64,000 nt of DNA from a virus (Duplodnaviria > Heunggongvirae > Uroviricota > Caudoviricetes), in the IMG/VR virus record IMGVR_UViG_2778261035_000005; one strand, given 5' to 3'. The stretch's first letter is position 1, and every line of letters begins with the position of its first letter. Below the pieces are notes generated by a model. The model did no database searches and was not told the DNA's origin. It worked only from the letters and a program-made list of their open reading frames with translations. Of this stretch, positions 8,185 to 58,806 are shown in pieces. A program made the position numbers and the translations under genes.

Positions 8185-8201
8185 TTTTAAAGCTCCTTTA
8201 A

Positions 8202-8220: not shown

Positions 8221-8232
8221 TGATTCCATTAA

Positions 8233-8883
8233 TTACGCTTTGAAAGCATCAGCTAAATAATTGTAGAAATCATTTTTAATGAAGCGATATTGCTGAGTAC
8301 CAGCTTTCGCGCTCCCAGCTCCTTTGACTTTTTCAACAAGTCCAAGACGTTCGCAAAGATTGATCAACTGGTTGGCTTGAGTATAGCCAGCGTCCAATTT
8401 AATTTCACACGCTTTTTTAGCTTCATTCATTAAATCGAAAACAGCGCCATTGGTGAACGTGTCGATCTCGTCGTTAATCATATCGATTAAAGCGAATACA
8501 CGAGATCCTGACATATCAGCGATGGAATAAACGCATTTACCAGATTTAATTGATTTAACCAGATAAACCAGTTTTTCCAGAGAATAACTATTAGTCATTG
8601 CATCACGGAAAAATACTTCTGGCGCTTGTTTGCTTGCTTTAATCGCATAGTAGAAAACAGAGCATAATTTTTCGTCTTCTACTGCGTTTACGACGTTGTT
8701 GATGAAGTAAGCAAGTTTAGTGGTCGCAGCTTGCATATTTGCTTTGTCTGCTTTAGTGTGCGTACCATTTTTATAATGTTCGTTATATGTTTGAGTTGCC
8801 AGATCTGCTTTTTCGCGCAGTTCATCGGATACAATAGATGCAGCTTCAATGATGGATTTTTTAGAAATGATAATGTTAGCCAT
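8233..8883 (-). CDS. hypothetical protein (216 aa)
   Basis: ORF with RBS aggaaa. Confidence 0.55.
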   Translation of the reverse strand: MANIIISKKSIIEAASIVSDELREKADLATQTYNEHYKNGTHTKADKANMQAATTKLAYFINNVVNAVEDEKLCSVFYYAIKASKQAPEVFFRDAMTNSYSLEKLVYLVKSIKSGKCVYSIADMSGSRVFALIDMINDEIDTFTNGAVFDLMNEAKKACEIKLDAGYTQANQLINLCERLGLVEKVKGAGSAKAGTQQYRFIKNDFYNYLADAFKA

Positions 8884-9166
8884 GATAATTTTTCCTTATG
8901 TAAATTTAAAATTTATTGTCGTTAGCGTCTTCGCTTTCGACGAGTTCAATTATCGATACGCGAAAAAAGATTGCAAGTGTTTTTTTTAAATTTTTTGCAG
9001 GGATGAAAGTCCTAGAAATAAAAGCGAGATCGTCGAAGGTGTTCCCTAAATAAATAATCGATTGCGGCTTTAGACCTTATATATATTTAGGTTATTTGAT
9101 TTGTAGATATAAAGAAGTGATGTGAAAAATAATAACCGGACTTAGCCGGTTATTAACCTTATAGAT

Positions 9167-15595: not shown

Positions 15596-15626
15596 TCGGT
15601 CTGGGAGCTTATTTAAAGACCTGCAT

Positions 15627-15675
15627 CTGTATATATAAATAATAAGTAACTTATTAAATATATACGGAAGCAGGC
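15627..15675. repeat. ~50-bp AT-rich palindromic element, copy 1
   Basis: ctgtatatataaataataagtaacttattaaatatatacggaagcagg; near-identical copy at 47203-47252. Confidence 0.75.
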
Positions 15676-38142: not shown

Positions 38143-41100
38143 ATGTGGTACAGGGAAGGTACTATCACATTTACACAGGGTAGCAATACCCTCGTTGGTG
38201 TTGGAACAGCCTGGAACGTAACAGCTAATGGTGTGTTGCCGGGCATGATCGTCATTGGCCCCGACAATAAGCTGTATGAGATCAAGCGCGTAACCAGTGA
38301 TACAAACATTGTTCTCTCAGAACCTTATACCGGCGAAACTCAGTCTGAAGTTCCGTGCCGAATCATTACGACCTATGAAGGTGACTTAACGCAGTTTAGC
38401 GCGCGCTTTACTGCACTAATGTCGCGTATGTCGGCTGATTCCAAGTCTATGCGCAGTTGGTTGACTGCTCTTGATGAGGTGACAATCGAGCGTGAAGACG
38501 GTACAGAAGTGACCGTTAAGCCGCTAATGCAGATCGTCAACGAGCACAACGAAAACGTTGAGTGGTATAAAAATAACACTGACGCGATTGATGCTGCTGG
38601 CGACAAAGCTCGTGAGGCGGCGGCCAGTGCTGCCGCAGCGGCAGAAAGCGCCAATACCGCTGGAGAAAAAGCATCTCAAGCGTCTCAAAGTGCATCCGCT
38701 GCGGCATCCTCACAAAGTGCTGCAAGTGCGAGTGCAACTGCTGCGAAAAGATCTGAAACGAACGCAGAGGCCGCCAAAGAAGCGGCAGCAGAATCAGCGT
38801 CTGTAGCATCGACCAAAGCATCGGAGGCTGCAATATCTGCGTCCAGTGCCTCTGCATCTAAGGATGCAGCCAAAGCATCAGAGACTAACGCTTCATCGAG
38901 TGCAAACGCGGCTGCATCATCGGCAACAGAAGCTGCAAATTCCTCTAAGGCAGCAAAAACGTCAGAGGCAAACGCAAAAGCATCTGAAACGGCAGCCGAA
39001 CAGAGTGCATCGTCTGCAAACAGTTCGAAATCTGCGGCAGAAGCGTCAGCAAGTGCAGCCTCAGCAAGTGCGGATAGTGCTTCATCAAGTGCAACAGCGG
39101 CAGGAAAATCTGCGGATAGCGCATTGTCATCCGCGACAACAGCTACCACAAAAGCGACAGAGGCGACGAGTCAGGCTACAGCTGCTAAAAATTCAGCATC
39201 GGCAGCAAAAACCTCTGAAACAAATGCAAAGACCTCAGAAGACAATGCTGCTTCCTCTAAGGCGGCAGCTGCTGAATCTGCAAGTTCTGCGTCTGCATCA
39301 GCCACCTCAGCATCCGCTTCAAAAGATGAGGCGACCAAGCAGGCATCAGCAGCGAAGAGCAGTGCTTCAACGGCATCCACGAAGGCAACAGAGGCGGCAG
39401 GCAGTGCGACAGCTGCATCTCAGAGCAAAACTGCTGCTGAATCCGCTGCGACCCGTGCGGAAGCTGCCGCTGATCGTGCTGAAGAGATTGCCGGTGCAGT
39501 TGCGATGGAAGACGCAAGCCTTACCACCAAAGGTGTTGTGAAACTTAGCAGTGCTGTCGACAGCACCAGTGAATCGCTGGCCGCAACGCCAAAAGCAGTT
39601 AAAGCAGCCAATGACAATGCGAATAGCAGGGTGCCATCTAACCGAAAAGTTAACGGTAAAGCACTGACTGCGGATATCACATTAACGCCGAAAGATATTG
39701 GTACTTTAAATTCAGTAACGATGTCTTTCTCTGGCGGGGCTGGGTGGTTCAAACTGGCTACGGTTACCATGCCACAAGCGAGTTCCATCGTTTACATCGC
39801 ATTGATTGGTGGCGCTGGTTACAACGTCGGCTCCCCACATCAGGCAGGCATTTCAGAACTGGTTCTACGAGCAGGCAATGGAAACCCCAAAGGGATTACA
39901 GGTGCTTTGTGGAAGCGTACAGCTGTCGGATTAACGAATTTCGCCTGGATCAACACATCCGGCGATACATATGATATTTACGTTGAGATTGGCAATTATG
40001 CGACGAGTGTAAATATCCATTGGGATTGTACTGCAAATGCGACAGTTTCTATTTATACATCGCCAACATATTCAGCGAGTAAGCCTTCCAGCGTTACCGA
40101 TGGTGTTGTTTATACGATGTATAGCACACATCAGAAACCGACGCCGTTAGATATTGGTGCACTGCCAACAACCGGAGGAACAGTTTCAGGTCCGTTGTCT
40201 GTTACTGGTGGGATCACCGGAACATTAAATGGTAATGCAAGTACAGCAACGAAATTACAGACGGCAAGATCTATCGGTGGAGTTGGTTTCGACGGTTCTG
40301 CCAATATTAATCTTCCAGGTGTAAACACTACGGGTAATCAGAACACCACTGGTAATGCCGCAACTGCTACAAAACTACAGACGGCAAGAACTATCGGCGG
40401 CGTGAGCTTTGATGGTACTGCAAATATTAATTTGCCAGGTGTTAATACGACTGGTAATCAGAATACAACAGGTAATGCGGCTACTGCTACGAAGTTGCAG
40501 ACTGCGCGTACTATTAATGGGGTGTCGTTTGACGGTTCGGCAAATATTTCCTTGTCACCAGCAAATATAGGTTGCCCAGCATCTCCTACTGGTTGGTTAA
40601 CTACAGGAAGTAATGGCGGAGCAATAACAACAGCCCAGTTAGTGACGTTATTGCAAAATAATGGAGCCTTTAACACAAAGTCATGGATTGCTCGATGTGC
40701 GTGGGCCTATGCCAATAGTGCAACCATACCAAATAGTGAAACTGGTTGTGGCGTTATTCCATTGGCAGGAGCTGTTATAGAGGTATTTAATAACGGTAGT
40801 AGCTCAAACAATTATACGATCCGTATAACAACGGCCACAACGACGAGTGTCTCTGGTGCTCTCACTAATGCGGAGTTTATCTATGTATTTAATGGCACAG
40901 ATTATTCTCCAGGATGGCGAAGAGTATATAACACGAAAAACAAACCAACAGCCTCTGATGTCGGTGCATTACCTCTTACCGGTGGTACATTATCTGGAGG
41001 TTTGACATCTTCTGGCGAGATCATTTCAAAATATGCAAATGGTTTCCGCATTGCTTACGGTAGCTTTGGGTTCTTTATCCGTAATGATGGGTCGAACACA

Positions 41101-42171
41101 TATTTCATGCTAACAGCATCAGGAGACACATTAGGTTCATGGAACGGTTTGCGACCGATTACAATTAACAATACCAGCGGTGCTGTATCAATTGGTAATG
41201 GACTAAATGTGACTGGTGGCGTAAATGGTAGTTTGAACGGTAATGCTTCAACAGCTACGAAGTTGCAAACAGCGAGAAACATCAATGGTGTTAAGTTTGA
41301 TGGCTCAGGCGATATCAACATTAATACATTGGTATCTCGTGGCCGAGTTACGGCGTTAAGCGGTTCTGCTCAAGGTACTGCTGGCATTCAAATGTACGAG
41401 GCGTACAGCAATAGCTACCCGACCACGTATGGCAACGTATTGCACATGAAAGGTGCGAGTGCTGCTGGTGAGGGCGAGTTGCTTATTGGCTGGAGTGGTA
41501 CGAGCGGTGCACATGCGCCGGTTTTCATTCGCTCCCGAAGAGATACCACTGATGCGGCATGGTCAGCGTGGGCGCAGGTATATACCGCTAAGGATTCAAT
41601 ACCTGGTGTGAATACAACCGGTAATCAGAACACTACTGGTAATGCTGCCACCGCCACAAAATTGCAGACAGCAAGGAAAATTGCTGGTGTGGCGTTTGAT
41701 GGCTCTGCCGATATTACTTTGACTGCGGCTAACCTTAATGCCTATACGAAAACAGAGGTAACAAACCTTCTAAGTTCCTATGTGAAGAGCAGTGCTCTTC
41801 CAAGTATGACTGTGCGAACTTCCTCTGTTTCAGGTGGGGATATGGGCATGAGTTTGTCCACATTCATTAGCCACCTAAAATCAAATGGGGCGTTTAGCAA
41901 AAGTTATTGGATTGGCTTTGGCGATGCTATGGGATTCAATGCTGGCAGTATCAACAATATAACGGGATTTGGTGCTGTAGAATTAGCAGAATCTATAATC
42001 GAAGTTTTTAATCTACCTAACGGTGATTATACAATTCGTTTAACAACGTCACATAAAGCTGACTACGGTGGAGTTACAAACGCAATCCTCGTTTATCACT
42101 ACCGTAGTAATAGAAGTCCGTCAGGTCAATGGCTGAAATTTGCAGGTACTGTTGGGGCAACAAGTAACTGA
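38143..42171 (+). CDS. side tail fibre (lambda Stf-like)
   Basis: Ala/Ser-rich KTSETNAK-type repeats and repeated GNQNTTGNAATATKLQTAR...FDGSANINLPGVNTT motifs typical of Stf/long tail fibres. Confidence 0.8.
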   Translation: MWYREGTITFTQGSNTLVGVGTAWNVTANGVLPGMIVIGPDNKLYEIKRVTSDTNIVLSEPYTGETQSEVPCRIITTYEGDLTQFSARFTALMSRMSADSKSMRSWLTALDEVTIEREDGTEVTVKPLMQIVNEHNENVEWYKNNTDAIDAAGDKAREAAASAAAAAESANTAGEKASQASQSASAAASSQSAASASATAAKRSETNAEAAKEAAAESASVASTKASEAAISASSASASKDAAKASETNASSSANAAASSATEAANSSKAAKTSEANAKASETAAEQSASSANSSKSAAEASASAASASADSASSSATAAGKSADSALSSATTATTKATEATSQATAAKNSASAAKTSETNAKTSEDNAASSKAAAAESASSASASATSASASKDEATKQASAAKSSASTASTKATEAAGSATAASQSKTAAESAATRAEAAADRAEEIAGAVAMEDASLTTKGVVKLSSAVDSTSESLAATPKAVKAANDNANSRVPSNRKVNGKALTADITLTPKDIGTLNSVTMSFSGGAGWFKLATVTMPQASSIVYIALIGGAGYNVGSPHQAGISELVLRAGNGNPKGITGALWKRTAVGLTNFAWINTSGDTYDIYVEIGNYATSVNIHWDCTANATVSIYTSPTYSASKPSSVTDGVVYTMYSTHQKPTPLDIGALPTTGGTVSGPLSVTGGITGTLNGNASTATKLQTARSIGGVGFDGSANINLPGVNTTGNQNTTGNAATATKLQTARTIGGVSFDGTANINLPGVNTTGNQNTTGNAATATKLQTARTINGVSFDGSANISLSPANIGCPASPTGWLTTGSNGGAITTAQLVTLLQNNGAFNTKSWIARCAWAYANSATIPNSETGCGVIPLAGAVIEVFNNGSSSNNYTIRITTATTTSVSGALTNAEFIYVFNGTDYSPGWRRVYNTKNKPTASDVGALPLTGGTLSGGLTSSGEIISKYANGFRIAYGSFGFFIRNDGSNTYFMLTASGDTLGSWNGLRPITINNTSGAVSIGNGLNVTGGVNGSLNGNASTATKLQTARNINGVKFDGSGDININTLVSRGRVTALSGSAQGTAGIQMYEAYSNSYPTTYGNVLHMKGASAAGEGELLIGWSGTSGAHAPVFIRSRRDTTDAAWSAWAQVYTAKDSIPGVNTTGNQNTTGNAATATKLQTARKIAGVAFDGSADITLTAANLNAYTKTEVTNLLSSYVKSSALPSMTVRTSSVSGGDMGMSLSTFISHLKSNGAFSKSYWIGFGDAMGFNAGSINNITGFGAVELAESIIEVFNLPNGDYTIRLTTSHKADYGGVTNAILVYHYRSNRSPSGQWLKFAGTVGATSN

Positions 42172-42310: not shown

Positions 42311-42373
42311 TAATTGAAAGGAGAAGTGTGATATAAATCCGCCATCCCGATTTGACTTTTCATGGAGGAAAAC

Positions 42374-42697
42374 ATGTCGAACGAGATGGCGGGCGTTACA
42401 ACAGAGCAAGTTGAGCGTATAGCCGCGATCGTTGCTCGGGAGGTTGTTGGCAAATTAGGTAAAGAGCTACGTGAAGAAATTGGCCAGGAGGTCAATGATC
42501 AGCTGAAAACCTACTTTGGTGATATGACCCCGGCGCAACATAGTATTCAACACTCCAATCTGGACAAACTCCTTAACCGGTTAGATTCCATCTCAAGTGG
42601 GTTCTTTGGCGGCATTGTTTCTAAAATAACGTCGTTCATTATTACCGCACTGCTTTTGGGGTTAGCCGCGTATGGCGTAAAAAGTGGACTGCAATAA
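42374..42697 (+). CDS. holin candidate (small protein with C-terminal TM helix)
   Basis: ggagg RBS before ATG 42374; hydrophobic ITSFIITALLLGLAAYGV; first gene of lysis cassette. Confidence 0.4.
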   Translation: MSNEMAGVTTEQVERIAAIVAREVVGKLGKELREEIGQEVNDQLKTYFGDMTPAQHSIQHSNLDKLLNRLDSISSGFFGGIVSKITSFIITALLLGLAAYGVKSGLQ

Positions 42698-42710
42698 CAG
42701 GAGATCAAGG

Positions 42711-43403
42711 ATGAAGACTCCGAGAGGCATTCGTAATAATAACCCCGGTAATCTTGATAAAGGATCACCGTGGCAAGGTCTGGTTGCGAATCCAGACGAA
42801 CCGCGCTTTTGCACGTTTAAAGACCCTGTTTGGGGGATTCGTGCGCTGGCGGTGACTCTAATTACCTACCACGATAAACGTCGCGCAAAAGACGGCACAA
42901 GTATCGATACCATTCGTGAAGTTATTGAACGCTGGGCACCGCCGAATGAAAACAATACTGACGCCTACATTAATGAGGTTTCTAAAGCCGTTGGTGTAAC
43001 CGCAGACATGATCATCGATCTGCATGATTACGACATCCTTCGACCTTTGGTTGAGGCAATCATTCGCCACGAGAATGGCCGAGGCCCGCTAAAAACGCTG
43101 AACACCTGGTATGCGGCAGAAGTTATTGAGGAAGGTCTGCGTCGAGCTGGCGTTGTTAAGCCGGTGAAAACCGTGAAGGCTGTTCCTGTAACTAAAGAAA
43201 CCGCAGGCGCAACTGTTACAGCAGGTATTGGTCTGGCGCAGCTGGCCGATGTTATGCCGCAGGTTTCCGCTGCTATGGATAAAGCACAAGGTCATATCTC
43301 TAGCGGGGATACAGTACGCATCATCTTCGGTATTGCCACTATTGTTGTGGCAGGATTCATTGCCTGGTCGCAGGTAAGAAAACATCAGAAAGGGATGGTC
43401 TAA
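42711..43403 (+). CDS. endolysin candidate with C-terminal membrane anchor (family not recognised)
   Basis: Position holin-X-Rz-Rz1; caggag RBS before ATG 42711; C-terminal hydrophobic helix. Confidence 0.35.
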   Translation: MKTPRGIRNNNPGNLDKGSPWQGLVANPDEPRFCTFKDPVWGIRALAVTLITYHDKRRAKDGTSIDTIREVIERWAPPNENNTDAYINEVSKAVGVTADMIIDLHDYDILRPLVEAIIRHENGRGPLKTLNTWYAAEVIEEGLRRAGVVKPVKTVKAVPVTKETAGATVTAGIGLAQLADVMPQVSAAMDKAQGHISSGDTVRIIFGIATIVVAGFIAWSQVRKHQKGMV

Positions 43404-43404
43404 T

Positions 43405-43656
43405 ATGCTAGGCAGCCTGATGACAAAGCTAAAAGTTGCTTTGATTACGCTGGCTGCCGTTCTTTTCGTTCTTGTCGGCGCTTACACGATGGGCGGGAAT
43501 GCGGCGCGACGAGCAATGGAAGAGAAGGCAAAACAGGAAGACAGAAAACGACTTCAAAGCACAGTGGAAGTGGTGAATGAGACGAGCAATAAAATACGTC
43601 AGAAAGATGCTTCTGCCGTTCATCGTGAGTTGTATGATAAGTGGGTGCGTCATTAA
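43405..43656 (+). CDS. i-spanin (Rz-like)
   Basis: N-terminal TM helix then charged coiled-coil-like segment; 83 aa. Confidence 0.6.
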   Translation: MLGSLMTKLKVALITLAAVLFVLVGAYTMGGNAARRAMEEKAKQEDRKRLQSTVEVVNETSNKIRQKDASAVHRELYDKWVRH

Positions 43657-43792
43657 ACCACAAACCGCCAGCGTATTGTTCTGCGATGGAGCTGGGCCTA
43701 TCTATATCAGCAATAATGATGTGATGACCGAAGAAACCGAACGCCAAATCCTTTTTCACAATACGATGGGAGAGAGAGTTTGCGGTTGGTGA
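43607..43792 (+). CDS. o-spanin (Rz1-like lipoprotein), overlapping Rz out of frame
   Basis: Lipobox MISGC; starts inside Rz in another frame and extends beyond it. Confidence 0.55.
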   Translation: MLLPFIVSCMISGCVIKPQTASVLFCDGAGPIYISNNDVMTEETERQILFHNTMGERVCGW

Positions 43793-43799
43793 TGCGAAG

Positions 43800-43817
43800 T
43801 TCCCCTCACTTGAGGGG
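43800..43817. terminator. bidirectional terminator between lysis genes and toxin gene
   Basis: cccctcacttgagggg hairpin. Confidence 0.55.
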
Positions 43818-43823
43818 AGTACA

Positions 43824-44345
43824 TTATTCTTCGAACAATTTTTCGATAGATTTTGTAGGATAGAACAAAGAACGCTCGTTGTTACCAACCAGCTGGATAA
43901 AGCCTAAACTTTTATAAAACGCCTTGGCTTTGTCATTTAACGCCTCAACGAAAAGTCCATGAATGCCTACAGCAAGAGATGCATTGTACACAACGCGCAT
44001 TGCATGTGTTACAAGCATTGAGCCAAATCCTTGACCTTGAAGGGACTTGTCCAAAGCCAGCCTACCCAAAGTAACACTTGGAACATTCCGATAAGGTACC
44101 TTCTTTTGCTGGCTTCTTGAAGGTAAGGACTCCTTTTCAAAGCAGCTACCTGACAAAGTGTAATACCCTAACACTTTTGGTCTGCCTTCTTTCGTGCAAA
44201 GCACATAAGCGCGAAGAATTTTTCCCTCATGCTGCCTTTTTAAGTGGTTGGTTAAAAAGGCATTTAGTGATTCTTCACCGCAATCAAAACCATTCAAATC
44301 ATAATCTTTCTCTCCAGAGAAAATTTCTATCTTTATATTATCCAC
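43824..44345 (-). CDS. GNAT-family acetyltransferase toxin (TacT/AtaT-like)
   Basis: GNAT motif GRLALDKSLQGQGFGSMLV; immediately downstream of DUF1778-type antitoxin. Confidence 0.75.
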   Translation of the reverse strand: MDNIKIEIFSGEKDYDLNGFDCGEESLNAFLTNHLKRQHEGKILRAYVLCTKEGRPKVLGYYTLSGSCFEKESLPSRSQQKKVPYRNVPSVTLGRLALDKSLQGQGFGSMLVTHAMRVVYNASLAVGIHGLFVEALNDKAKAFYKSLGFIQLVGNNERSLFYPTKSIEKLFEE

Positions 44346-44352
44346 GAGTAAA

Positions 44353-44622
44353 CTACTCCATGCTTTTCAGACGATCAGCAGCTCGTTTCAGCTTGTCGTT
44401 CGGTGCCGGAGGATTGCTTATAGCGTCCATAACCAGATTCCAGGATTCTTCATTCAGAACTAGTCTACGGTGTTGCTCTATAACTTTCACGGCACGTTCA
44501 GATGCACTGCTAACCATAAACTGAGTAATGCTCTGGTTAGACATTGCGGCAGCTTCCTCGATGATGCTTTTATCGTCATCGGTTAATCTCAAATCGATGC
44601 GCTGCTTTTTTAGTGCTGACAT
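44353..44622 (-). CDS. DUF1778/RHH antitoxin (TacA/AtaR-like)
   Basis: MSALKKQRIDLRLTDDDKSIIEEAA... characteristic N-terminus; antitoxin-first order. Confidence 0.75.
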   Translation of the reverse strand: MSALKKQRIDLRLTDDDKSIIEEAAAMSNQSITQFMVSSASERAVKVIEQHRRLVLNEESWNLVMDAISNPPAPNDKLKRAADRLKSME

Positions 44623-44890
44623 GTATTCCTCCTGATGGCCGTGATGTAGGAAGGCCATCAATCTCCTCTGTTCAAACTGAGTTTTCGACTCAAAAATTAC
44701 TTTAAAAGGCTATAGCCCATTACGTGTGCATTATCAAATTGTGTACGGCATATCACCGTACTTGTAATATAGAGGTCATTGTTACTTTTTTCAACAGACA
44801 AATACAAGCTATGATTGCCAATTGTTAATCACAACCTACCATTTAACCTTTACACCGCAGCCGTAGGCATTTAGGCTATATCACATATAA

Positions 44891-44906
44891 GAAAACAAGT
44901 TGTTTC
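44891..44906 (+). promoter_or_regulatory. operator palindrome GAAAACAAGTTGTTTC upstream of parA
   Basis: Same palindrome family as left arm. Confidence 0.5.
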
Positions 44907-44940
44907 AGACAATAATAATAGACGCAAAGGGAACTCTCCA

Positions 44941-45609
44941 ATGACCAAGATCTTTGTGGTTGGCGGCACAAAGGGCGGGCCTGGCAAATCCACCGTTGCC
45001 CAGCAAATTGCCGTTTGCCTGAAAGTCAAAAAGAAGAAGAAGGTTTATATCACTGATATAGATATTCAGCGCACGACAACAAGCTGGTGTGAAGACCGTC
45101 GACAGAACGAAGACCTTGAGCTGATTCCTTTTGCATACGTTCAGGATGACATCATTAAGCACCTAAAATCGCTTCAGGGTAGAGCTGAGTTTGTAGTGGT
45201 AGATGCTGGTGGCTTTGACTCCGAAATTCAGCGACAAGCGATGCTGATGGCCGACGTTATCATTATCCCGCTTCGTCCTAAGCGTCGTGATTTGAAATCT
45301 CTGCGTGACATCGATCCTATTATCGACAATGTTCGTAATGTAAACGATAAAGTGAAGGTCCGCGCGGTCATGAACCAGTGCCCGGCTTTGCCATCACAAG
45401 TGTCTCGCATTCTGGCGGCTAAAGAGATTGTCGAGACGTTTGGCATCGAGTCTGCGCCAGTCAATCTATATAACCGCAACGTCTACGATGATGCGGAAGA
45501 GTCTGGTCGTTCTATCTTTGAAATGACCGGTAGCGAGCGCGACAAAAAGGCGGAAGCCGAGTTTGAAGAATTTGTAGATTATCTGTTGAGTCTGGAGGAA
45601 GAAGAATAA
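44941..45609 (+). CDS. parA: ParA-family partition ATPase
   Basis: Deviant Walker A GGTKGGPGKST; 222 aa. Confidence 0.85.
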   Translation: MTKIFVVGGTKGGPGKSTVAQQIAVCLKVKKKKKVYITDIDIQRTTTSWCEDRRQNEDLELIPFAYVQDDIIKHLKSLQGRAEFVVVDAGGFDSEIQRQAMLMADVIIIPLRPKRRDLKSLRDIDPIIDNVRNVNDKVKVRAVMNQCPALPSQVSRILAAKEIVETFGIESAPVNLYNRNVYDDAEESGRSIFEMTGSERDKKAEAEFEEFVDYLLSLEEEE

Positions 45610-45968
45610 TGTCCATGAAAATGGGTGACCTAGCAAAGCGCAAAGAGCCTGATGCACCGGCCAAGAACACAACTCCTTTGCGCCAACCAGTCAGACCACA
45701 GGGACGCCCGACTCGTGGCAAAGAGAAAATTAAAAGCCGCACAATGTCACTGGAAGACGAATACTTCGAACTGCTGGAGATGATGAAGTTCATCCCTCGC
45801 TTCGAGAAATTCACCCGCTCTGATGTGATTCGTGCTGCTATTTTCCATCTTGCGGAGAAGACACCGCAGGAAATCGAGGACATCGTAAAGCTGAACGAGG
45901 CGATCACAGCTGCCGATGTCACGATGCGTACCGATGAAATTAAACGCGAGTTGATGAAGAAAGGTTAA
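45609..45968 (+). CDS. RHH centromere-binding protein (ParG-like)
   Basis: Basic disordered N-terminus + C-terminal RHH-like segment; ATGA overlap with parA. Confidence 0.55.
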   Translation: MSMKMGDLAKRKEPDAPAKNTTPLRQPVRPQGRPTRGKEKIKSRTMSLEDEYFELLEMMKFIPRFEKFTRSDVIRAAIFHLAEKTPQEIEDIVKLNEAITAADVTMRTDEIKRELMKKG

Positions 45969-45971
45969 TAA

Positions 45972-45997
45972 TGTGGGCTGTCTAGCCCACATTATTT
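45972..45997 (+). terminator. terminator after partition operon
   Basis: aatgtgggc-tgtcta-gcccacatt then TTTT. Confidence 0.6.
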
Positions 45998-46019
45998 TAA
46001 TTAAAGTGGAGTGATAATT

Positions 46020-46772
46020 ATGCATTCGTTAGTATTTGCATTTAAAAACATACTCAAGAATGTTATAAACATACTAGGGATGTTAAATATTTTTTTGTCT
46101 GTGAGGGTGAGGAGAAAAGATATAAAAGATAAATTAAAGGAACTTAACAAAGAAAAAGAACAATTAAAAAGCGAAGAAATTATTATTGATTTATACAAGA
46201 AAAAACTCGCATCTAGCAAGGGGAAAGCTAATGATAAAATCAAAGGAAAAATAATTCACTATATTATTGCTAGAGAGTTGGGGAATGATCCTGATAATGA
46301 AGATTTGCGACATAATCTTTTTACAAAGATAAAAGAATCAGAAGAACAGGTTGAAGTTCTGGTTCATCAAAGAGAAGTAAGTGAGCAGGCGAACAAAAAA
46401 GAAACGGTTGTCAATTTATTTTTATTGTATGAAAAAAATAAATTGTTTAAAGCTAAGGGGTTGGCTGTGTTTCTTATAGTTATAAACTTAATTATAGTTG
46501 CGACTCTCGATCTTCCAGCTTGGTCATTGATTATAAGTTTTTTTATTCTCTCTTTGATTATGTTGAAAGATCAGATACTTACTATTCGTGTCTCTAAAGG
46601 ATATTTTGGCACAAGTGCGTATGAAGCGGTTCAATTGCTTAAATTCATCAGAGAAAATTCAGACAAATTTGACTCAGATGATAATGACGGTAGCCCACGA
46701 CGGATATTGAATCCGAAGGGAACAACAAAAAAATCAGACAACCTATTCGATAAAGGGTGGCAAAATGTTTGA
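46020..46772 (+). CDS. AT-rich gene: membrane protein (about 250 aa)
   Basis: N-terminal TM, K/E-rich coiled-coil segment, two more TM helices; composition visibly more AT-rich than flanks. Confidence 0.55.
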   Translation: MHSLVFAFKNILKNVINILGMLNIFLSVRVRRKDIKDKLKELNKEKEQLKSEEIIIDLYKKKLASSKGKANDKIKGKIIHYIIARELGNDPDNEDLRHNLFTKIKESEEQVEVLVHQREVSEQANKKETVVNLFLLYEKNKLFKAKGLAVFLIVINLIIVATLDLPAWSLIISFFILSLIMLKDQILTIRVSKGYFGTSAYEAVQLLKFIRENSDKFDSDDNDGSPRRILNPKGTTKKSDNLFDKGWQNV

Positions 46773-47187
46773 CCTTGACGCCATCACTAAGTTCTTAAAT
46801 CAGTGTTTTGATCTACTTTTGCTCAAGCAGCCTTTAAGAACTGTTTTCGGAATACTGATTGGTTTCATTATTTTTGTTTTTGTTTACACGTTTAGGTTTG
46901 CGATAGCTCAAGATTTTTATGAAATAGATGGCGTGCATTACGCTGCATGTTTCGTCATCGGTGTTTTAGTTGTTCACACAAGAACATTTTTTGACGTTAT
47001 CAAGGGCACCGCAGTTGATGAAGAAATAGATAGTATGATCAGAGTTATTACGAAGCAGCCACACCTATCTAACCATCAAAAAAACATAATGATTGCTGAA
47101 ATACTTCAAAAAGAAATTGCAGCCATAAGTCAAAAGAGATTGGATAAAGTTGCACAAGAAATAACGGAGAAAAAGACAACTGATTAA
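46765..47187 (+). CDS. AT-rich gene: small membrane protein with two TM helices
   Basis: Overlaps stop of previous gene; hydrophobic segments LRTVFGILIGFIIFVFVYTF and VHYAACFVIGVLVV. Confidence 0.55.
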   Translation: MFDLDAITKFLNQCFDLLLLKQPLRTVFGILIGFIIFVFVYTFRFAIAQDFYEIDGVHYAACFVIGVLVVHTRTFFDVIKGTAVDEEIDSMIRVITKQPHLSNHQKNIMIAEILQKEIAAISQKRLDKVAQEITEKKTTD

Positions 47188-47202
47188 TTTAATTACCTGT
47201 TT

Positions 47203-47252
47203 CTGTATATAAATAATAAGTAACTTATTAAATATATATACGGAAGCAGGTC
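47203..47252. repeat. ~50-bp AT-rich palindromic element, copy 2
   Basis: ctgtatataaataataagtaacttattaaatatatatacggaagcagg. Confidence 0.75.
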
Positions 47253-47358
47253 TTTTAAAAGACACCCACCAGAACAACTCCCTTCCGTTTCCACTTCCAA
47301 AAACTGCCACCAGTCGCTATCATCCGCTCATTGTGATAAGTAAGTAACTACCTACCAG

Positions 47359-48108
47359 GTGAGCCACATGAGCCAAATCTTTTTCGATACCATCGACAAC
47401 AACCAGTACGACTTCATGACAGAGTGGAATACCGCTGTTATGGACAAGTGGGTTGCTGAAAACATTGGTTTGTCGCGCTGCAAAGACGAGGCTGAACTCT
47501 TCGAGACGAAGTGGTTTGATTACCGCGACATGCATCCTCTCATGGCCACCTGCCTTTTTACGGAGGCATACAAACGTCAGTACTCAAATATCATGCTGAC
47601 GCACGGTCGCGAACACTTTGAAACAGCTCCGTTCACCACCGGGTTAAAACGCCTGCCTTATCAGGAGTTGTCGACTGCCAATAAAACGTCTCTATGGAAA
47701 GCACGCCAGTTTGCTGACCGCTATTGCTGCTCATACGACTACTTTATCTCCACCGTTCTTTCCGCAGCTGCACGACGGCTGTGGGACAAGCTGCCGCGCC
47801 CACAGCATTTATGGCAGCCAGAACTGATTGAGATATTTGAAGAGAAATTAGCCAGACGCGCAACAACCCGTCTGGATGACTCTCTGGTTAGCTTTAAGCA
47901 TATGGGAGACATGCAGTTCAACCCGATTCAGGAAAGCTATTTTGAATGGATTCTGGAGCGTTTGCGCACCATCCCTCGCAGTAAGCGCATACGCGCAATT
48001 TTCTCCGCTATCTGGCTAATGGAAATCGTTCCAGAGCGCCTTATTTCCGCCCACTTTCCAGAAGAACTGGAAGAAGCACGGCGGTTTATTGATCCCCTAT
48101 CTAATTAA
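47359..48108 (+). CDS. hypothetical protein (249 aa), possibly replication-associated
   Basis: ORF (GTG 47359 or ATG 47368) immediately upstream of helicase. Confidence 0.5.
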   Translation: MSHMSQIFFDTIDNNQYDFMTEWNTAVMDKWVAENIGLSRCKDEAELFETKWFDYRDMHPLMATCLFTEAYKRQYSNIMLTHGREHFETAPFTTGLKRLPYQELSTANKTSLWKARQFADRYCCSYDYFISTVLSAAARRLWDKLPRPQHLWQPELIEIFEEKLARRATTRLDDSLVSFKHMGDMQFNPIQESYFEWILERLRTIPRSKRIRAIFSAIWLMEIVPERLISAHFPEELEEARRFIDPLSN

Positions 48109-49573: not shown

Positions 49574-50755
49574 ATGAGCCTTTATGTTATATCAACATTT
49601 AGGTTGGTAACAATATTGCCTGTTAAAAGTGGAATTATCGTGAGCGAGCTGAAAGAGTTAATTACCGAATTAGATTTTGAACAATGGTTGGACACTGAAG
49701 GTATCGTTTATCGACGTGGAGGCGTGAGTACTCGCGGTCGTGAAGTGAATATCAAGGAGTGTCCGGTATGCGGCAGCTCCAACTGGAAGGTATATTTCAA
49801 TCTGACCAGTGGCGTCGGTAAATGCTTCGCTGGTGATCATCCCGAAGAGATTCAGTTCAATAAGCTGGTCTTCCTCAAGCACTACAGCGGCAAATCACGA
49901 CGACAGTTCGAGGAATATGTGCAGAACGCCCTTCTTTCCCAGGGGTGGGCACCAAAGAAAGAAGAGCTAGTGCTTGCAAGCACAGTCGAGTTAGAGGGGC
50001 CAGTTGCACTCCCTCGTCATTACGAACTTCCTATAGATGGCCGTCTTCCAGACTATCTGGTTGAACGAAATATATCGCCTGAAATGGCAAAGTATTTTGA
50101 CCTACGATACTGCGTCGAAGGTAAGCACGCCTATGTAGATCCGTATACAGATCAGGTTAAAGGACAGATATTCGATATGCGAATACTGATACCGGTTTAC
50201 GATCTGGATGGGGTAATGAAGACATTTCAGGGACGAGACATTACCGGTACAGCAGAACGCCGCTACCTCTTTCCTATGCAGCTTCCAGCTTCAGGTAAGT
50301 TTCTCTACAACGGCTATAATGCAGTCGGCAAACAGACTGTAGTTGTCTGTGAGGGGGCGTTCGATGTTATGGGGGTTAAACGAGCTATTTTTGACGAAGA
50401 AACATTACGTGATTACGTGGAACCAATAGGAACGTTCGGGATGCATCTATCTGGTAACACCACTCAGGATGCAGAAGATCAGTTAGGCGCGTTCCTGACG
50501 CTCAAGGCGCGTGGGTTACGTAATGTGATCATGATGTGGGATAGTGAAAAGCAAGCTATACGAAACACTATGGCCGCAGCCAGGCGACTGACCAGTATCG
50601 GTCTTAATGTGAAAATTGCATGTTTGGGCGAGGAAGGACTCGACCCCGGCGATGCGACCCCGGGGCAGATTATCAAAGCCTACTATTGCGCAAAACCTTA
50701 CTCACGACAGCTTGAACTTTTAAGCAAGGTAAAAGGCATAGCAGCATTAGTTTGA
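49574..50755 (+). CDS. DnaG-type primase (zinc ribbon + TOPRIM)
   Basis: CPVCGSSNW...CFAGDH zinc ribbon; TOPRIM VVVCEGAFD and MMWDSEKQ; start uncertain (49502 GTG / 49574 ATG). Confidence 0.75.
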   Translation: MSLYVISTFRLVTILPVKSGIIVSELKELITELDFEQWLDTEGIVYRRGGVSTRGREVNIKECPVCGSSNWKVYFNLTSGVGKCFAGDHPEEIQFNKLVFLKHYSGKSRRQFEEYVQNALLSQGWAPKKEELVLASTVELEGPVALPRHYELPIDGRLPDYLVERNISPEMAKYFDLRYCVEGKHAYVDPYTDQVKGQIFDMRILIPVYDLDGVMKTFQGRDITGTAERRYLFPMQLPASGKFLYNGYNAVGKQTVVVCEGAFDVMGVKRAIFDEETLRDYVEPIGTFGMHLSGNTTQDAEDQLGAFLTLKARGLRNVIMMWDSEKQAIRNTMAAARRLTSIGLNVKIACLGEEGLDPGDATPGQIIKAYYCAKPYSRQLELLSKVKGIAALV

Positions 50756-51892
50756 ACCAGTATTAGTCACGTACACATTGACCGAAAATGATTTAACTTC
50801 TGTGTTGAAGTTGTCAGTCATTACCGCGAGGTAGGCATTCTTGGTATCTCTGAATTGCTTCAGTATGATTTGAACGTTATCGGTGCAAACAAACGAGGTA
50901 GCCAGATTGCCTCCTTTCTCTGAAAAATCCTTCAGGAAGGTGCAGTCAACTTTGCCATCATTAGCGGTGAAGGTAGCATCATCACCCTGCCAGGTAAATG
51001 TAGCGTTAACGCCCTTATCAATGGATTTAGCAATAAGTCGCTGGGTGGCGGATTTTGTTTTGGCTTTGGAAGCCGGCGCTCGATATTTGCCGCTTTCTTT
51101 CAGTTCTGCAATGTAATCACAGCCATTTTTATCTTCTTTATCACAAGCAGCCTGATAAAGCTCAGCTGCTTTTTTATAGTCTTTTTTAACCCCTTCACCA
51201 TACTCATACATAATGCCAAGATTTGTCATGGCATCGGCGTTTCCGAGTTCAGCAGCTTTTTTATACCACTTAATTGCTTCGGCATCGTTGCGTTTAACAC
51301 CTAAACCGTCATCGTATAAGGTGCCTAATGCGAACATGCCATCTGAACTACCTTGATCCGCCGCTTTTTTGTAATAAGTAAAAGCTTTTTTATAACTCTT
51401 TTGTACACCTTTACCATATTGGTAATACGCACCAAGAAGGTAGCTAGCTTTAACATACCCGGCATCAGAGGCTAGATTGAAGTATTTAATGGCGAGCGCA
51501 TGATCTACTTTACCAAGCATCCCCTTTTGATAAATAGCACCAAGATTGTTATAGGCTCTACCTTCACGAGCATCTCCCGCAAGTTTGTAGTACTCAACTG
51601 CTTTATTTAAGTCTTTATCTACACCCTCGCCAAATGTGTACATAACCCCAAGTGCATAATATGCTACTTTGTCTCCCTTTTCTGCAGCGAGATCAATCCA
51701 CTTCTTGGCCTCAACTACATCCTTATCAAAACCATTGATACCATCAAAATAATTTGTCCCTAACTCACTTTGTGCTGCGGTATCCCCTGCGGTAGCGGCT
51801 TCTATCAGCGTTTGTTTATTGTCTGCGTTAACGAATCCAGAGCTAAAAAGCAAAGTTAATGCCAGCAACGATGAAGATTTTATGTATTTCAT
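50747..51892 (-). CDS. secreted Sel1-repeat protein
   Basis: Signal peptide MKYIKSSSLLALTLLFSSGFVNA, then ~8 Sel1-type repeats and a ~110-aa C-terminal domain. Confidence 0.8.
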   Translation of the reverse strand: MKYIKSSSLLALTLLFSSGFVNADNKQTLIEAATAGDTAAQSELGTNYFDGINGFDKDVVEAKKWIDLAAEKGDKVAYYALGVMYTFGEGVDKDLNKAVEYYKLAGDAREGRAYNNLGAIYQKGMLGKVDHALAIKYFNLASDAGYVKASYLLGAYYQYGKGVQKSYKKAFTYYKKAADQGSSDGMFALGTLYDDGLGVKRNDAEAIKWYKKAAELGNADAMTNLGIMYEYGEGVKKDYKKAAELYQAACDKEDKNGCDYIAELKESGKYRAPASKAKTKSATQRLIAKSIDKGVNATFTWQGDDATFTANDGKVDCTFLKDFSEKGGNLATSFVCTDNVQIILKQFRDTKNAYLAVMTDNFNTEVKSFSVNVYVTNTGSN

Positions 51893-52125
51893 ATTTTTTG
51901 TTCTGTTGATATAGGATGAACAGTTTAGACGCGGCAAGTGTCAAGTGTGCGAAAAATGGTACTTAAATTTAGTTAATATGTCAGCTTTGTTGATTTAGTT
52001 TATGGTCGGTAAAGTTACTAGGAAACTAATAACCATAAGAAATAGTACGTCATTTAATTATTGTGGCACTGCTCGTGTTTTGATTAACTAATACCTGCGA
52101 TAAATATAAATAAAGGGAAGCCAAC

Positions 52126-57341: not shown

Positions 57342-57496
57342 GACACAGCGTTGAGCGGTTTGGCCTTTTAATCACCCAGATTAAGACTCCGCTAACATAA
57401 ACCAGACCGCTCAACGCTGTGATAGACAATTACGGCAGACGTTCTTAACCATAGCTTGCTAACATCCTAGCAACACTTTTTTTCAGCGCAAAATTC

Positions 57497-57521
57497 AAAG
57501 GGGCTTCGGCCCCTTTTTGGC
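57497..57521. terminator. bidirectional rho-independent terminator
   Basis: aaaggggcttcggcccctttttgg. Confidence 0.75.
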
Positions 57522-57525
57522 TGGG

Positions 57526-58806
57526 TTAATTAAAACCGAATGAATCAAGTTCTGCTTTTAATTTATCGACCATTTTTTCAACTTCAACCACAATTTCGCC
57601 AATCACCTTTTCTTTGTGTTGATTAGAGCTAAGTTCAAAATAGGCGTTATATAACGCATAACGAGACAGAAAATTTCTAATCTCATTAGCGGGTCTAATG
57701 GTGTAGCCATCGGTTAACACGATATCGGTCTGTCTAGAGTGCTTCTCGTTGAGTTTTATTAGCCGCTTTATCTGTTTTTCATCCTTGAGCACTATCACTT
57801 TGTTAGCTGCAATTTCAAGCTCCCAGCCGACAAAATAACGCAGCGTAGAATTTAATTTAGCCACTTCCTCGGCTGCAATTTCCATTTTCAGCTCAATGTA
57901 GTTTCGCATATGCATAGGTAGGTCATTAAATCTTTGCAGCAAATGTTGTCGGCAGGGGTTGTTGTAAGACCAAAGAACTGCAAACGTAAGCCTATGATAA
58001 CAGCTTATCGCATTGGTATTACAGGCCGAATCACCAACAATCATGCGATCAACATAAAACTCTACGTCTTTTTGGTATTCTTTATTGAATATATCAGCGG
58101 CATAGGTGTCCAGGTAATGAACTTTAGATATTGCATCTTCAAAGAAAAGTTCATTTTCGAAGAAGTTGTATTTGTTCAGGAGACGATAAAGTTTCTTTGC
58201 GTCGTAGGTTTTGCTATTGTCGACATTAAGACCAAAAATAGCAATCAGCAGACTTACTTTTGGACTAATGCTGTTGCGCAGTTGTTCTATGTAAGATCTC
58301 TTTTCACTATCCGCAGATGACGGCAGATAGAAGTCTTTATCTACATAATTTAGAATTAAAATAATGTGGTTAACATACTTAATATAAACAGGGTTTTTTG
58401 TTGCATAGTAATAAACGCCCTTGACGACTTTTATATTCAATTTCAAATTGTACTGACTATCATCCAGTAAGGTTTTGTTAACATCCTCAAGTAATTTATT
58501 ATGCTGTTCAAGTAATATGCCGTACCATTCCTTAAAAGAAGATTTTTTCATTTCAAGAAGCGAAGCCGCCGTCAGCCTGGTCGCTCTCATTGCCGCCTTT
58601 GCACTATGCCTTGCCTCATAAGCGGCCCATGCTGTGGCTAAAAAGGCAAGTGAAGTAGCAAGCGTACCTATAACCTCTACGTTTTCCTTGACGGTATCCC
58701 AGAAAATAATCATCACTGTCCCAAGTATGAGGATTAACAAAACAGGCATTTTATCAGTGTCTTTGGTTAATTTTGAAACTGAATGATACCTAATCGACCA
58801 TACCAT
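57526..58806 (-). CDS. AT-rich gene: membrane-anchored protein (426 aa) of unknown function
   Basis: Two N-terminal TM helices then ~330-aa soluble domain; no motif recognised; composition visibly AT-rich. Confidence 0.6.
   Translation of the reverse strand: MVWSIRYHSVSKLTKDTDKMPVLLILILGTVMIIFWDTVKENVEVIGTLATSLAFLATAWAAYEARHSAKAAMRATRLTAASLLEMKKSSFKEWYGILLEQHNKLLEDVNKTLLDDSQYNLKLNIKVVKGVYYYATKNPVYIKYVNHIILILNYVDKDFYLPSSADSEKRSYIEQLRNSISPKVSLLIAIFGLNVDNSKTYDAKKLYRLLNKYNFFENELFFEDAISKVHYLDTYAADIFNKEYQKDVEFYVDRMIVGDSACNTNAISCYHRLTFAVLWSYNNPCRQHLLQRFNDLPMHMRNYIELKMEIAAEEVAKLNSTLRYFVGWELEIAANKVIVLKDEKQIKRLIKLNEKHSRQTDIVLTDGYTIRPANEIRNFLSRYALYNAYFELSSNQHKEKVIGEIVVEVEKMVDKLKAELDSFGFN

What the first reader, a model, noticed from the sequence alone, without database searches (positions are those of the whole stretch)
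46011..47187. AT-rich two-gene membrane cassette between partition and replication modules: candidate defence or exclusion system
Two overlapping genes with visibly lower GC than their neighbours encode a ~250-aa protein (N-terminal TM, K/E-rich coiled coil, two further TM helices) and a 140-aa two-TM protein. The cassette is framed by a terminator upstream and the 50-bp palindromic element downstream. Foreign composition, membrane localisation and position in an accessory slot are the hallmarks of abortive-infection or superinfection-exclusion morons; no known family recognised.
Basis: partly seen in the sequence, partly recalled or inferred. Interest (0 to 1): 0.75.

Follow-up and report, generated by a model that had tools for sequence, protein, structure and literature searches.

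The report
Mobile two-gene membrane cassette, unknown function
Two overlapping AT-rich genes for small inner-membrane proteins form a strictly paired cassette that sits in swap-in/swap-out slots of several unrelated temperate phages and phage-plasmids, which makes it a good but untested candidate for a new anti-phage or exclusion system.

Summary
Gene A (46020-46772, 250 aa) and gene B (46765-47187, 140 aa) overlap by 8 nt. They form the lowest-GC 1.2 kb of the window (0.33 vs 0.46, z -3.8), between a parA/parB-like pair and the replication genes of an SSU5-like phage-plasmid.

The swapped segment is 45971-47194. Most E. coli relatives carry other cargo there, including PADLOC defence candidates PDC-S31 and PDC-S49.

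The pair is not a one-off. Every A homologue examined (window plus 44 loci) has a B-sized ORF overlapping it downstream; 42 of the 45 (window included) were confirmed as B homologues by profile. It occupies this slot in SSU5 itself and in Klebsiella, Enterobacter, Citrobacter, Cronobacter and Salmonella relatives.

It also sits in accessory slots of P2-like prophages, including the orf30 slot, downstream of a CI repressor beside a SIR2 gene, beside a P4-like satellite carrying AbiU, and after rusA.

A exhaustive profile search found 362 clusters. Neither protein matches Pfam, NCBIfam, PADLOC 2.0 or PDB, and profile comparison found no similarity to lambda RexA/RexB or (A only) P2 Orf30. Both are under purifying selection but evolve about 5 times faster than ParA or DnaB.

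Best reading: a lysogen-expressed membrane exclusion or abortive-infection module (about 0.5). Function is inferred from context only.

The parts
44941..45968 (+). Context: parA (44941-45609) and a small parB-like gene (45609-45968), the conserved left border of the slot and probable source of transcription into the cassette
   Evidence: ParA/CbiA/MipZ Pfam hits on homologues. Annotated as AAA family ATPase. Flank identity of 98% with relatives ends at 45970-45972. In SSU5-type relatives A starts 2-5 nt after the parB-like stop.
45967..45996 (+). GC-rich hairpin with T-rich tail overlapping the parB-like stop codon; a terminator-like or attenuator element at the left edge of the variable segment
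   Evidence: 13-bp perfect stem, 4-nt loop. RNA fold -18.5 kcal/mol, z -4.5. Kept through compensatory changes in 8 cassette-bearing relatives.
45971..47194 (.). The exchangeable (variable) segment of the slot: hairpin plus gene A plus gene B
   Evidence: Pairwise blastn against relatives with other cargo. Homology stops at 45970-45972 and resumes at 47195-47196. GC is 0.327, the lowest in the window.
46020..46772 (+). Gene A, 250 aa. It has an amphipathic N-terminus and a variable K/E-rich helical region. A conserved juxtamembrane helix (126-146) precedes a TM hairpin (147-189). The conserved motif R-V-x-K-G-Y-F-G-x-x-x-x-E-A (190-203) and a C-terminal tail follow.
   Evidence: phrog_22270 E 2.9e-115. 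362 representative clusters in the exhaustive profile search, aligned mainly to positions 110-240. dN/dS 0.21-0.32.
46765..47187 (+). Gene B, 140 aa, overlapping A by 8 nt. It has two hydrophobic helices (30-48, 61-79) and a charged C-terminal helical region. It is the obligate partner of A.
   Evidence: phrog_17322 E 7.8e-69. A B homologue lies directly downstream of A wherever A was found: 42 confirmed by profile search and 3 more by gene geometry. dN/dS 0.25-0.31.
47195..47258 (.). Imperfect palindrome of about 64 bp at the right border of the slot; a backbone element, not cargo
   Evidence: -26 kcal/mol, z -8. 98% conserved in relatives with other cargo. Second copy at 15611-15675.

Best explanation
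Genes A and B are one member of an undescribed, strictly paired two-gene module encoding inner-membrane proteins. The module moves as a unit between the accessory (hotspot) slots of temperate mobile elements of Enterobacterales. It most likely acts in the lysogen as an anti-phage exclusion or abortive-infection system.

Shown:
- The pair is always together and translationally coupled (4-, 8- or 11-nt overlaps).
- It is dispensable for the element.
- It is under purifying selection yet fast-evolving.
- It sits where other elements carry defence genes or defence candidates.

Inferred topology: A is held in the inner membrane by a helical hairpin. Its variable helical N-terminal region and its two conserved juxtamembrane segments (126-146 and 190-222) face the cytoplasm, following the positive-inside rule (KAK before TM1, K/R after TM2). 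B is a small two-helix membrane partner with a cytoplasmic C-terminal helix.

Inferred expression: transcription comes from the constitutively expressed partition operon. Coupling is direct in SSU5-type relatives and runs through a hairpin attenuator here. In one 186/P2-like prophage it comes from the CI repressor transcript.

Inferred mechanism: the variable part of A senses or scaffolds, and the conserved A core with B forms the membrane effector. That effector would either block incoming phage DNA or collapse membrane integrity on infection.
For: Pairing:
- All 45 places with an A homologue (window plus 44 loci) have an overlapping B-sized ORF downstream.
- 42 were verified with a B profile (gene geometry).
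- This holds down to about 20% identity for A.

Dispensability and slot variability:
- 7 of 251 flank-matching plasmids and 7 of 5426 complete E. coli genomes carry the cassette.
- Alternative cargo in the same slot includes PDC-S31 (E 1e-40) and PDC-S49 (E 2e-22).

Mobility between unrelated elements:
- P2-like orf30 slot between gpS and gpV, in two independent A lineages. P2's own record shows nonessential Orf30 there, and PMC3091744 names it a horizontally acquired region.
- Next to gpD/gpU.
- Next to gpG/H/I together with an acyltransferase.
- Next to a P4-like Psu/alpha region with AbiU (E 4e-152).
- After RusA.
- Downstream of a CI repressor and followed by bPH and SIR2 genes.

Selection: dN/dS is 0.21-0.32 for A and B against 0.02-0.05 for ParA and DnaB, with dN about 3 times higher.

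Domain pattern: variable N-terminal part, conserved C-terminal core.

Operon link: A starts 2-5 nt after the parB-like stop in SSU5 and 10 other loci.

Background: curing a whole SSU5-like plasmid from K. pneumoniae raised plasmid uptake and phage burst (PMC8969562, abstract). That result is not gene-specific.
Against: - No experiment or homology links either protein to defence. PADLOC 2.0 gives only insignificant coiled-coil-type hits.
- PDC-S31 and PDC-S49 are themselves only candidates.
- Hotspots also carry toxin-antitoxin, conversion and unknown genes, so context is suggestive rather than specific.
- In the SSU5 supergroup the pair is common and syntenic with parAB, which could instead point to a plasmid-maintenance role.
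- AF2 models are poor (pLDDT 56 and 68), so the proposed topology and complex are unverified.
- No promoter was found for the window copy.
- DefenseFinder models newer than 2023 could not be checked.
Confidence: 0.5

Rival explanations
1. The pair is an addiction or toxin-antitoxin-like stability module. One membrane protein (for example B, or the conserved A core) is a membrane-damaging toxin, and the partner restrains it. Cells that lose the phage-plasmid or prophage are killed. Any phage defence would be a by-product.
For: - Tight two-gene architecture with translational coupling.
- Location directly behind parAB, and co-operonic with it in SSU5-type elements.
- The neighbouring slot of the same element holds a GNAT/DUF1778 toxin-antitoxin pair.
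- Toxin-antitoxin modules also populate prophage hotspots.
Against: - No similarity to any toxin-antitoxin family in Pfam, NCBIfam or PADLOC.
- Both partners are membrane proteins of 140-250 aa, unlike typical small membrane toxins with RNA or small protein antitoxins.
- Most E. coli relatives are maintained without it.
- The pair also occurs in integrated prophages, where segregational loss is not an issue.
Confidence: 0.15
2. The pair is a lysogenic-conversion or other host-directed moron unrelated to phage conflict, for example an envelope, stress or colonisation factor expressed from the prophage.
For: - Membrane location.
- In Pantoea it lies beside an Acyl_transf_3 gene, a typical surface-modifying conversion gene.
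- AT-rich accessory genes in enterobacteria often encode such traits.
- No defence homology.
Against: - Both proteins are predicted to expose their conserved parts to the cytoplasm, with only very short periplasmic loops. That is unlike surface-modifying factors.
- Direct neighbours and slot alternatives are mostly defence genes or defence candidates (AbiU, SIR2, PDC-S31, PDC-S49).
- Fast protein evolution fits conflict genes.
Confidence: 0.12
3. The pair serves the element itself: a membrane tether or regulator for partition or replication of the phage-plasmid, or a lysis-timing (holin/antiholin-like) accessory.
For: - Position between the partition and replication modules, and operon fusion with parAB in SSU5-type elements.
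- Wide conservation of this synteny across genera.
- In P2-like phages the slot follows the lysis and tail-completion genes.
Against: - The pair is absent from about 97% of flank-matching E. coli relatives, which keep the same par and rep genes.
- It is present in integrated P2-like prophages, beside a P4-like satellite and after a CI repressor, where no plasmid partition is needed.
- The element has its own holin, endolysin and spanin-like set at 42362-43656.
- No Pfam lysis family matches.
Confidence: 0.08
4. The ORFs are chance reading frames or decaying remnants in AT-rich spacer DNA.
For: Low GC, and no known domain.
Against: - dN/dS is 0.2-0.3 with saturated synonymous change between variants.
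- Blocks are conserved across 39 diverse homologues.
- 362 homologous clusters.
- Pairing and overlap are conserved.
Confidence: 0.02

Closest known systems
Lambda RexA/RexB (prophage-encoded two-gene exclusion system transcribed with the cI repressor)
   Same: - A two-gene, lysogen-expressed accessory module of a temperate phage, with similar sizes (279 + 144 aa against 250 + 140 aa) and a membrane component.
- One family member (L039) lies downstream of a CI repressor on the same strand, as rexAB does.
   Different: - No sequence relationship: hhalign probability is 0.1% for A against RexA, 0.2% for B against RexB and 0.06% for A against RexB.
- From established knowledge, RexA is soluble and RexB has four TM helices. 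Here both partners are membrane-anchored by hairpins.
- In the window the pair follows parAB, not a repressor.
P2 accessory loci: orf30 slot, old/tin (TO region) and Z/fun
   Same: - The A-B pair occupies exactly the gpS|gpV slot that holds nonessential Orf30 in P2.
- It also lies next to gpD and next to gpG/H/I in other P2-like prophages.
- These are the regions described as horizontally acquired (PMC3091744) and, for old/tin and Z/fun, as phage-exclusion hotspots (PMC9122126; bioRxiv 10.1101/2024.10.15.618418).
   Different: - No similarity of A to P2 Orf30 (hhalign probability 0.14%).
- old, tin and fun are single soluble proteins with defined targets.
- The orf30 slot itself has no demonstrated defence role.
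PADLOC phage-defence candidates PDC-S31 (DUF2971) and PDC-S49 (P-loop NTPase)
   Same: They occupy the same parB|palindrome slot in sister E. coli SSU5-like plasmids. PDC-S31 sits immediately next to the A-B pair in SSU5 as SSU5_037.
   Different: They are unrelated single soluble proteins. They are candidates from genomic enrichment, and this work did not confirm them as validated defence systems.
Small-membrane-protein superinfection exclusion and abortive-infection effectors (T4 Imm, P22 SieA, 2TM/4TM effectors of CBASS, Pycsar and retrons, SLATT domains)
   Same: Short helical-hairpin inner-membrane proteins encoded by mobile elements. They are proposed to block DNA entry or depolarise the membrane (established knowledge; PMC9122126 discusses TM effectors).
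   Different: - No Pfam or PADLOC match to any of these. A single A homologue hit the PADLOC '4TM effector' model at E 0.0011, which is insignificant.
- The A-B pair lacks an associated enzymatic sensor or signal generator.
- Imm and SieA sequences were not compared directly.

Membership tests
PHROG families phrog_22270 (A) and phrog_17322 (B) | Significant full-length match to the family HMM | tested here: met
   A: E 2.9e-115 over profile positions 16-255 of 255. B: E 7.8e-69 over 1-136 of 136. Both families are labelled 'unknown function'.
Known or candidate anti-phage systems in PADLOC-DB 2.0 (2023) | Significant HMM match of the proteins to a system component | tested here: not met
   Best hits are PDC-M02B at E 0.0012 and LeoBC at E 0.0088 for A, and JetC at E 0.01 for B. 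All lie in the charged helical regions. 39 diverse A homologues give no consistent family.
Defence-hotspot cargo (operational definition) | A conserved flanked slot with mutually exclusive cargo, some of it defence genes, where the same cargo recurs in other elements' hotspots | tested here: met
   - Sharp junctions at 45970-72 and 47195-96.
- At least five alternative cargos, including PDC-S31 and PDC-S49.
- The pair recurs in the P2 orf30 slot, gpD-proximal, CI-proximal, P4-like and rusA contexts, with AbiU and SIR2 as neighbours.
Lambda RexAB | Homology of the larger protein to RexA and of the smaller one to RexB | tested here: not met
   hhalign probabilities of 0.1% and 0.2%.
Lambda RexAB | Co-transcription with the prophage repressor in the lysogen | tested here: inconclusive
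   Gene order CI - 184 aa - A - B on one strand in L039. In the window the pair follows parAB instead. No transcript data.
P2 Orf30 | Homology to P2 Orf30 (NP_046770) | tested here: not met
   hhalign probability 0.14% for the A profile against Orf30. Only the slot is shared.
Phage lysis proteins (holin, antiholin, spanin) | Match to a holin or spanin family, and location within the lysis cassette | tested here: not met
   No Pfam or NCBIfam hit. The element's holin, endolysin and spanin-like genes are at 42362-43656, separated from the pair by a variable slot and parAB.
Toxin-antitoxin / addiction module | One partner is toxic alone and is neutralised by the other | not testable with these tools
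   Needs expression experiments. No toxin-antitoxin family match in Pfam, NCBIfam or PADLOC.
Abortive infection or superinfection exclusion system | Reduces plating or burst of a challenging phage, with or without death of the infected cell | not testable with these tools
   No phenotype data exist for these proteins. Accession and locus-tag searches of the literature and of the DefensePredictor supplements found nothing.
Any structurally characterised protein family | Sequence-profile match to a PDB chain | tested here: not met
   The best E-value is 0.1 for the A profile and 0.42 for the B profile, all to unrelated helical proteins. AF2 models were too poor for fold search.

The most novel reading that the evidence does not exclude
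A and B define a new family of two-component inner-membrane anti-phage systems. A hairpin-anchored protein has a hypervariable cytoplasmic helical region acting as sensor and a conserved juxtamembrane core (R-V-x-K-G-Y-F-G...E-A). It works with an obligate small two-helix partner. The cassette shuttles among the hotspots of P2-like phages, P4-like satellites, lambdoid phages and SSU5-like phage-plasmids. In the phage-plasmids it is wired to the partition operon, so it would be on whenever the plasmid prophage is maintained.
Probability: 0.45. Interest if true: 0.65.

Novelty: new variant of a known kind. Interest (0 to 1): 0.55.

Why it matters
If the pair is a defence or exclusion system, it adds a protein family with no recognisable domains to the catalogue.

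It would also show that the parB-proximal slot of SSU5-like phage-plasmids is a defence hotspot that exchanges cargo with the P2/P4 hotspots. SSU5-like elements are common in clinical E. coli, Shigella, Klebsiella and Salmonella.

It would give a simple, small (1.2 kb) system for studying how membrane-anchored sensors detect infection.

Even if it is not defensive, the family is large (362 clusters at 50% identity) and strictly paired. Neither partner matches any Pfam or NCBIfam family. It is therefore a well-defined target for functional work.

Tried and rejected
- Pfam, NCBIfam and PADLOC scans of A, B and the alternative cargos. Nothing significant for A or B. The same holds for 39 diverse A homologues and 17 B homologues.
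- PDB sequence-profile searches found nothing.
- AF2 on shallow alignments gave pLDDT 56 (A) and 68 (B). I therefore ran no fold searches, since matches to such all-helical low-confidence models would be meaningless.
- hhalign of A against RexA, RexB and P2 Orf30, of B against RexB, and of A against B found no relationship.
- The search for related loci with the full 39-sequence alignment failed because no block was conserved enough. The 'KGWYGRNEYEA' subgroup found nothing in viral contigs.
- The genome scan returned only 4 loci.
- The P2-slot variants of the cassette are absent from E. coli complete genomes.
- Literature searches on accession numbers, SSU5 locus tags and PHROG ids found nothing, and the DefensePredictor supplements hold none of the accession numbers searched. 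Brenes & Laub 2025 is not held.
- DS-37, a DefenseFinder system reported on Salmonella SSU5-like elements, is a single gene linked to AbiH, so it is not this pair. I could not identify DS-33.
- The promoter scan gave no more sites than shuffled sequence, and none is placed to drive A.
- I rejected the idea that the palindrome is part of the cassette, because it is conserved in relatives with other cargo.
- I rejected 'recent foreign insertion' as the cause of low GC. Every variant in every host keeps 30-40% GC despite saturated synonymous divergence.
Full report
**What the window is.** The region around the finding has the gene order of an SSU5/pHCM2-like phage-plasmid:
- tail fibre (38143-42171);
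- holin-like, endolysin-like and an 83-aa gene (42362-43656);
- a GNAT toxin with a DUF1778 antitoxin on the minus strand (43824-44661);
- ParA (44941-45609) and a small ParB-like gene (45609-45968);
- the two genes of the finding;
- a phrog_2500 gene (47359-48108), a DnaB-like helicase and a primase.

Megablast finds 99.5-99.9% identical stretches on six roughly 76-114 kb E. coli plasmids. One Enterobacter hormaechei plasmid matches at 81%.

**Observation check.**
- Gene A is best placed at 46020-46772 (250 aa). The ATG follows a GGAG by 9 nt, and RefSeq annotates it this way in identical plasmids. Gene B is 46765-47187 (140 aa). They overlap by 8 nt.
- The 1222-nt segment 45973-47194 has GC 0.327 against a window mean of 0.458 (z -3.8). 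It is the lowest-GC segment of the whole 64 kb. GC3 is 0.29 and 0.33 against 0.45-0.57 in the neighbours.
- Hydropathy gives A a clear helical hairpin (147-165, 171-189) and B two hydrophobic helices (30-48, 61-79). The N-terminal 'TM' of A is only an amphipathic, sub-threshold segment, although most distant homologues have one or two strong N-terminal TM helices.
- The upstream hairpin (45967-45996; -18.5 kcal/mol, z -4.5) and the downstream palindrome (47195-47258; -26 kcal/mol, z -8) are real.

**The slot and its borders.** Relatives that carry other cargo match the window at 98% up to 45970-45972. That is just past the ParB-like stop codon. They match again from 47195-47196, the first base of the palindrome. 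The exchangeable unit is therefore 45971-47194: hairpin, A and B.

The palindrome is backbone. A second copy (88% over 66 nt) lies at 15611-15675, also intergenic.

Of 251 PLSDB plasmids matching the flanks, only 7 carry this cargo. Of 5426 complete E. coli genomes, 7 carry it, always on plasmids. The same slot elsewhere holds:
- a 225-aa lipoprotein-like gene;
- a 352-aa gene;
- a DUF2971 protein that matches PADLOC PDC-S31 (E 1e-40);
- a P-loop NTPase that matches PDC-S49 (E 2e-22).

**The pair is not peculiar to this plasmid.** tblastn finds A homologues on 74 plasmids: 51 Klebsiella (including pKPHS1), plus Enterobacter, Cronobacter, Citrobacter and Salmonella. It also finds one in phage SSU5 itself.

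In all of these the pair follows the parA/parB-like genes. In SSU5 and ten other loci A starts 2-5 nt after the ParB-like stop, with no hairpin, so it is almost certainly part of the partition operon. Where an intergenic gap exists, a hairpin with compensatory stem changes is conserved.

In the window only 23 nt separate the hairpin from the start codon, and no sigma-70-like site fits. I therefore infer attenuated read-through from the par promoter. This is untested.

**A much larger family, always paired.**
- The word-indexed search found only 8 (A) and 4-8 (B) clusters, all on SSU5-like contigs.
- The exhaustive profile search found 362 representative clusters at E <= 1e-3, and 40 at E <= 1e-10. 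They align mainly to profile positions 110-240.
- Across 39 diverse members the N-terminal 125 residues are essentially unconserved (12-14% identity to the window protein). The juxtamembrane helix (126-146) keeps about 47% identity and the post-hairpin motif (190-222) about 52%. R190, G197 and E202 are invariant, and G194 and A203 nearly so.
- Every place where an A homologue was examined (window plus 44 loci) has an overlapping ORF of 134-150 aa directly downstream. Of these, 42 were confirmed as B homologues with a B profile, and 3 by gene geometry.
- A and B are not homologous to each other.

**Contexts outside the phage-plasmids.**
- In P2-like prophage contigs, two different A lineages sit between gpR/gpS and gpV. 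This is the slot of nonessential Orf30 in P2, one of three regions of P2-like phages regarded as horizontally acquired (PMC3091744).
- Other copies lie next to gpD/gpU and next to gpG/H/I with an O-acyltransferase in Pantoea.
- One copy lies beside a P4-like satellite (Psu, alpha-primase fragment) that also carries AbiU, in Pectobacterium.
- One copy follows rusA on a lambdoid-type contig.
- One copy lies in a 186/P2-like early region, on the same strand as and downstream of a CI repressor, and is followed by bPH and SIR2 genes.
- In SSU5 the neighbour SSU5_037 is PDC-S31.

This distribution argues strongly against a partition, replication or lysis role. It is what is expected of a mobile accessory cassette engaged in inter-element conflict. 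P2/P4 hotspots are known reservoirs of antiviral systems (PMC9122126).

**Evolution and composition.**
- dN/dS is 0.21-0.32 for A and 0.25-0.31 for B, against 0.04-0.05 for ParA and 0.02 for DnaB in the same genome pairs.
- Non-synonymous divergence is about three times higher, and synonymous sites are saturated between more distant variants.
- The cassette has 29-40% GC in every locus, whatever the flanks (44-62%).
- Low GC is therefore an intrinsic, maintained property rather than a sign of recent arrival.

**Comparison with known families.**
- No match in Pfam, NCBIfam, PADLOC 2.0 or PDB sequences.
- PHROGs holds both proteins as unknown-function families.
- hhalign shows no relation to lambda RexA or RexB, or of A to P2 Orf30.
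- AF2 models are all-helical but of low confidence, so I did not attempt fold searches.
- Literature searches found no study of these proteins.
- A survey of SSU5-like phage-plasmids reports various known defence systems on them but not this pair (bioRxiv 10.1101/2025.09.12.675607).
- Curing a whole SSU5-like plasmid from K. pneumoniae increased plasmid uptake and phage burst (PMC8969562). That is compatible with the defence reading but not specific to it.

**Most likely mechanism.** Shown:
- an obligate, translationally coupled membrane pair;
- dispensable and mobile between hotspots;
- fast-evolving, with a variable N-terminal part and a conserved core.

Inferred:
- A is anchored by its hairpin, with both the variable helical region and the conserved juxtamembrane segments in the cytoplasm (positive-inside rule).
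- B is a small membrane partner with a cytoplasmic C-terminal helix.
- The pair is expressed in the lysogen from the par operon, or from the repressor transcript in the 186-like case.
- It acts as an exclusion or abortive-infection device at the inner membrane.

I put this at about 0.5. The rivals are an addiction or toxin-antitoxin module (0.15), a non-defence conversion gene pair (0.12), an element-intrinsic role (0.08) and non-genes (0.02).

**Verdict.** The family is new in sequence terms, but it belongs to a familiar kind of thing, the prophage hotspot cassette. Interest is moderate to high (0.55), mainly as a clean, small, widely distributed candidate system and as evidence that the parB-proximal slot of SSU5-like phage-plasmids trades cargo with the P2/P4 hotspots.

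Noticed in passing
window 47195-47258 and 15611-15675: A roughly 64-bp imperfect palindrome occurs twice in the window (88% identity over 66 nt). Both copies are intergenic and follow plus-strand ORFs. The 47 kb copy is the conserved right border of the cargo slot. It could be a bidirectional terminator, a centromere-like site or an operator.
   Followed up: partly
window 43657-44940 (GNAT toxin 43824-44345 and DUF1778 antitoxin 44353-44661, minus strand): A second variable slot lies between the lysis genes and parA. The window holds a TacT/TacA-like toxin-antitoxin pair. Relatives hold instead a HEPN protein (L013 1141-2352), a 127+249-aa pair (L004, L007, L050), a 132+263-aa pair (L005), a 399-aa gene (L006) or a 185-aa gene (L008). 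The partition operon is thus flanked by two cargo slots.
   Followed up: partly
L049 1814-2569; L050 3311-5005; L011 4999-5757: Alternative or adjacent cargo of the same slot matches PADLOC defence candidates: DUF2971 proteins match PDC-S31 (including SSU5_037, right next to SSU5's A-B pair), and a 564-aa P-loop NTPase matches PDC-S49.
   Followed up: yes
L039 7322-9628: A bPH-domain gene and a 615-aa SIR2 gene (which matches pAgo-associated SIR2 and PDC-S65 models) directly follow the A-B pair. They lie downstream of a CI repressor in a 186/P2-like prophage, and a putAbiC gene sits at the other end of the early region.
   Followed up: partly
L012 (pKPHS1) 3831-5000: In K. pneumoniae HS11286 plasmid pKPHS1 the A homologue is split into two ORFs (3831-4016 and 4163-4597). 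The B ORF (4590-5000) is intact but annotated only as a 53-aa fragment. This may be a decaying copy or a sequencing or annotation problem.
   Followed up: no
L009/L010 5605-7276: In a Citrobacter relative the phrog_2500 gene is truncated to 132 aa, and no DnaB-like helicase lies between it and the primase. The A-B pair and parAB are kept.
   Followed up: no
window 7915-9136 and 57343-58564: These are the next lowest-GC 1.2-kb segments of the window (0.361 and 0.376) and may be further accessory cargo.
   Followed up: no
window 50747-51937 (minus strand): A 396-aa protein with an N-terminal signal-like segment and Sel1/TPR-type repeats, annotated as a tetratricopeptide repeat protein in relatives. 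It converges on the primase gene and has GC3 of 0.37.
   Followed up: no
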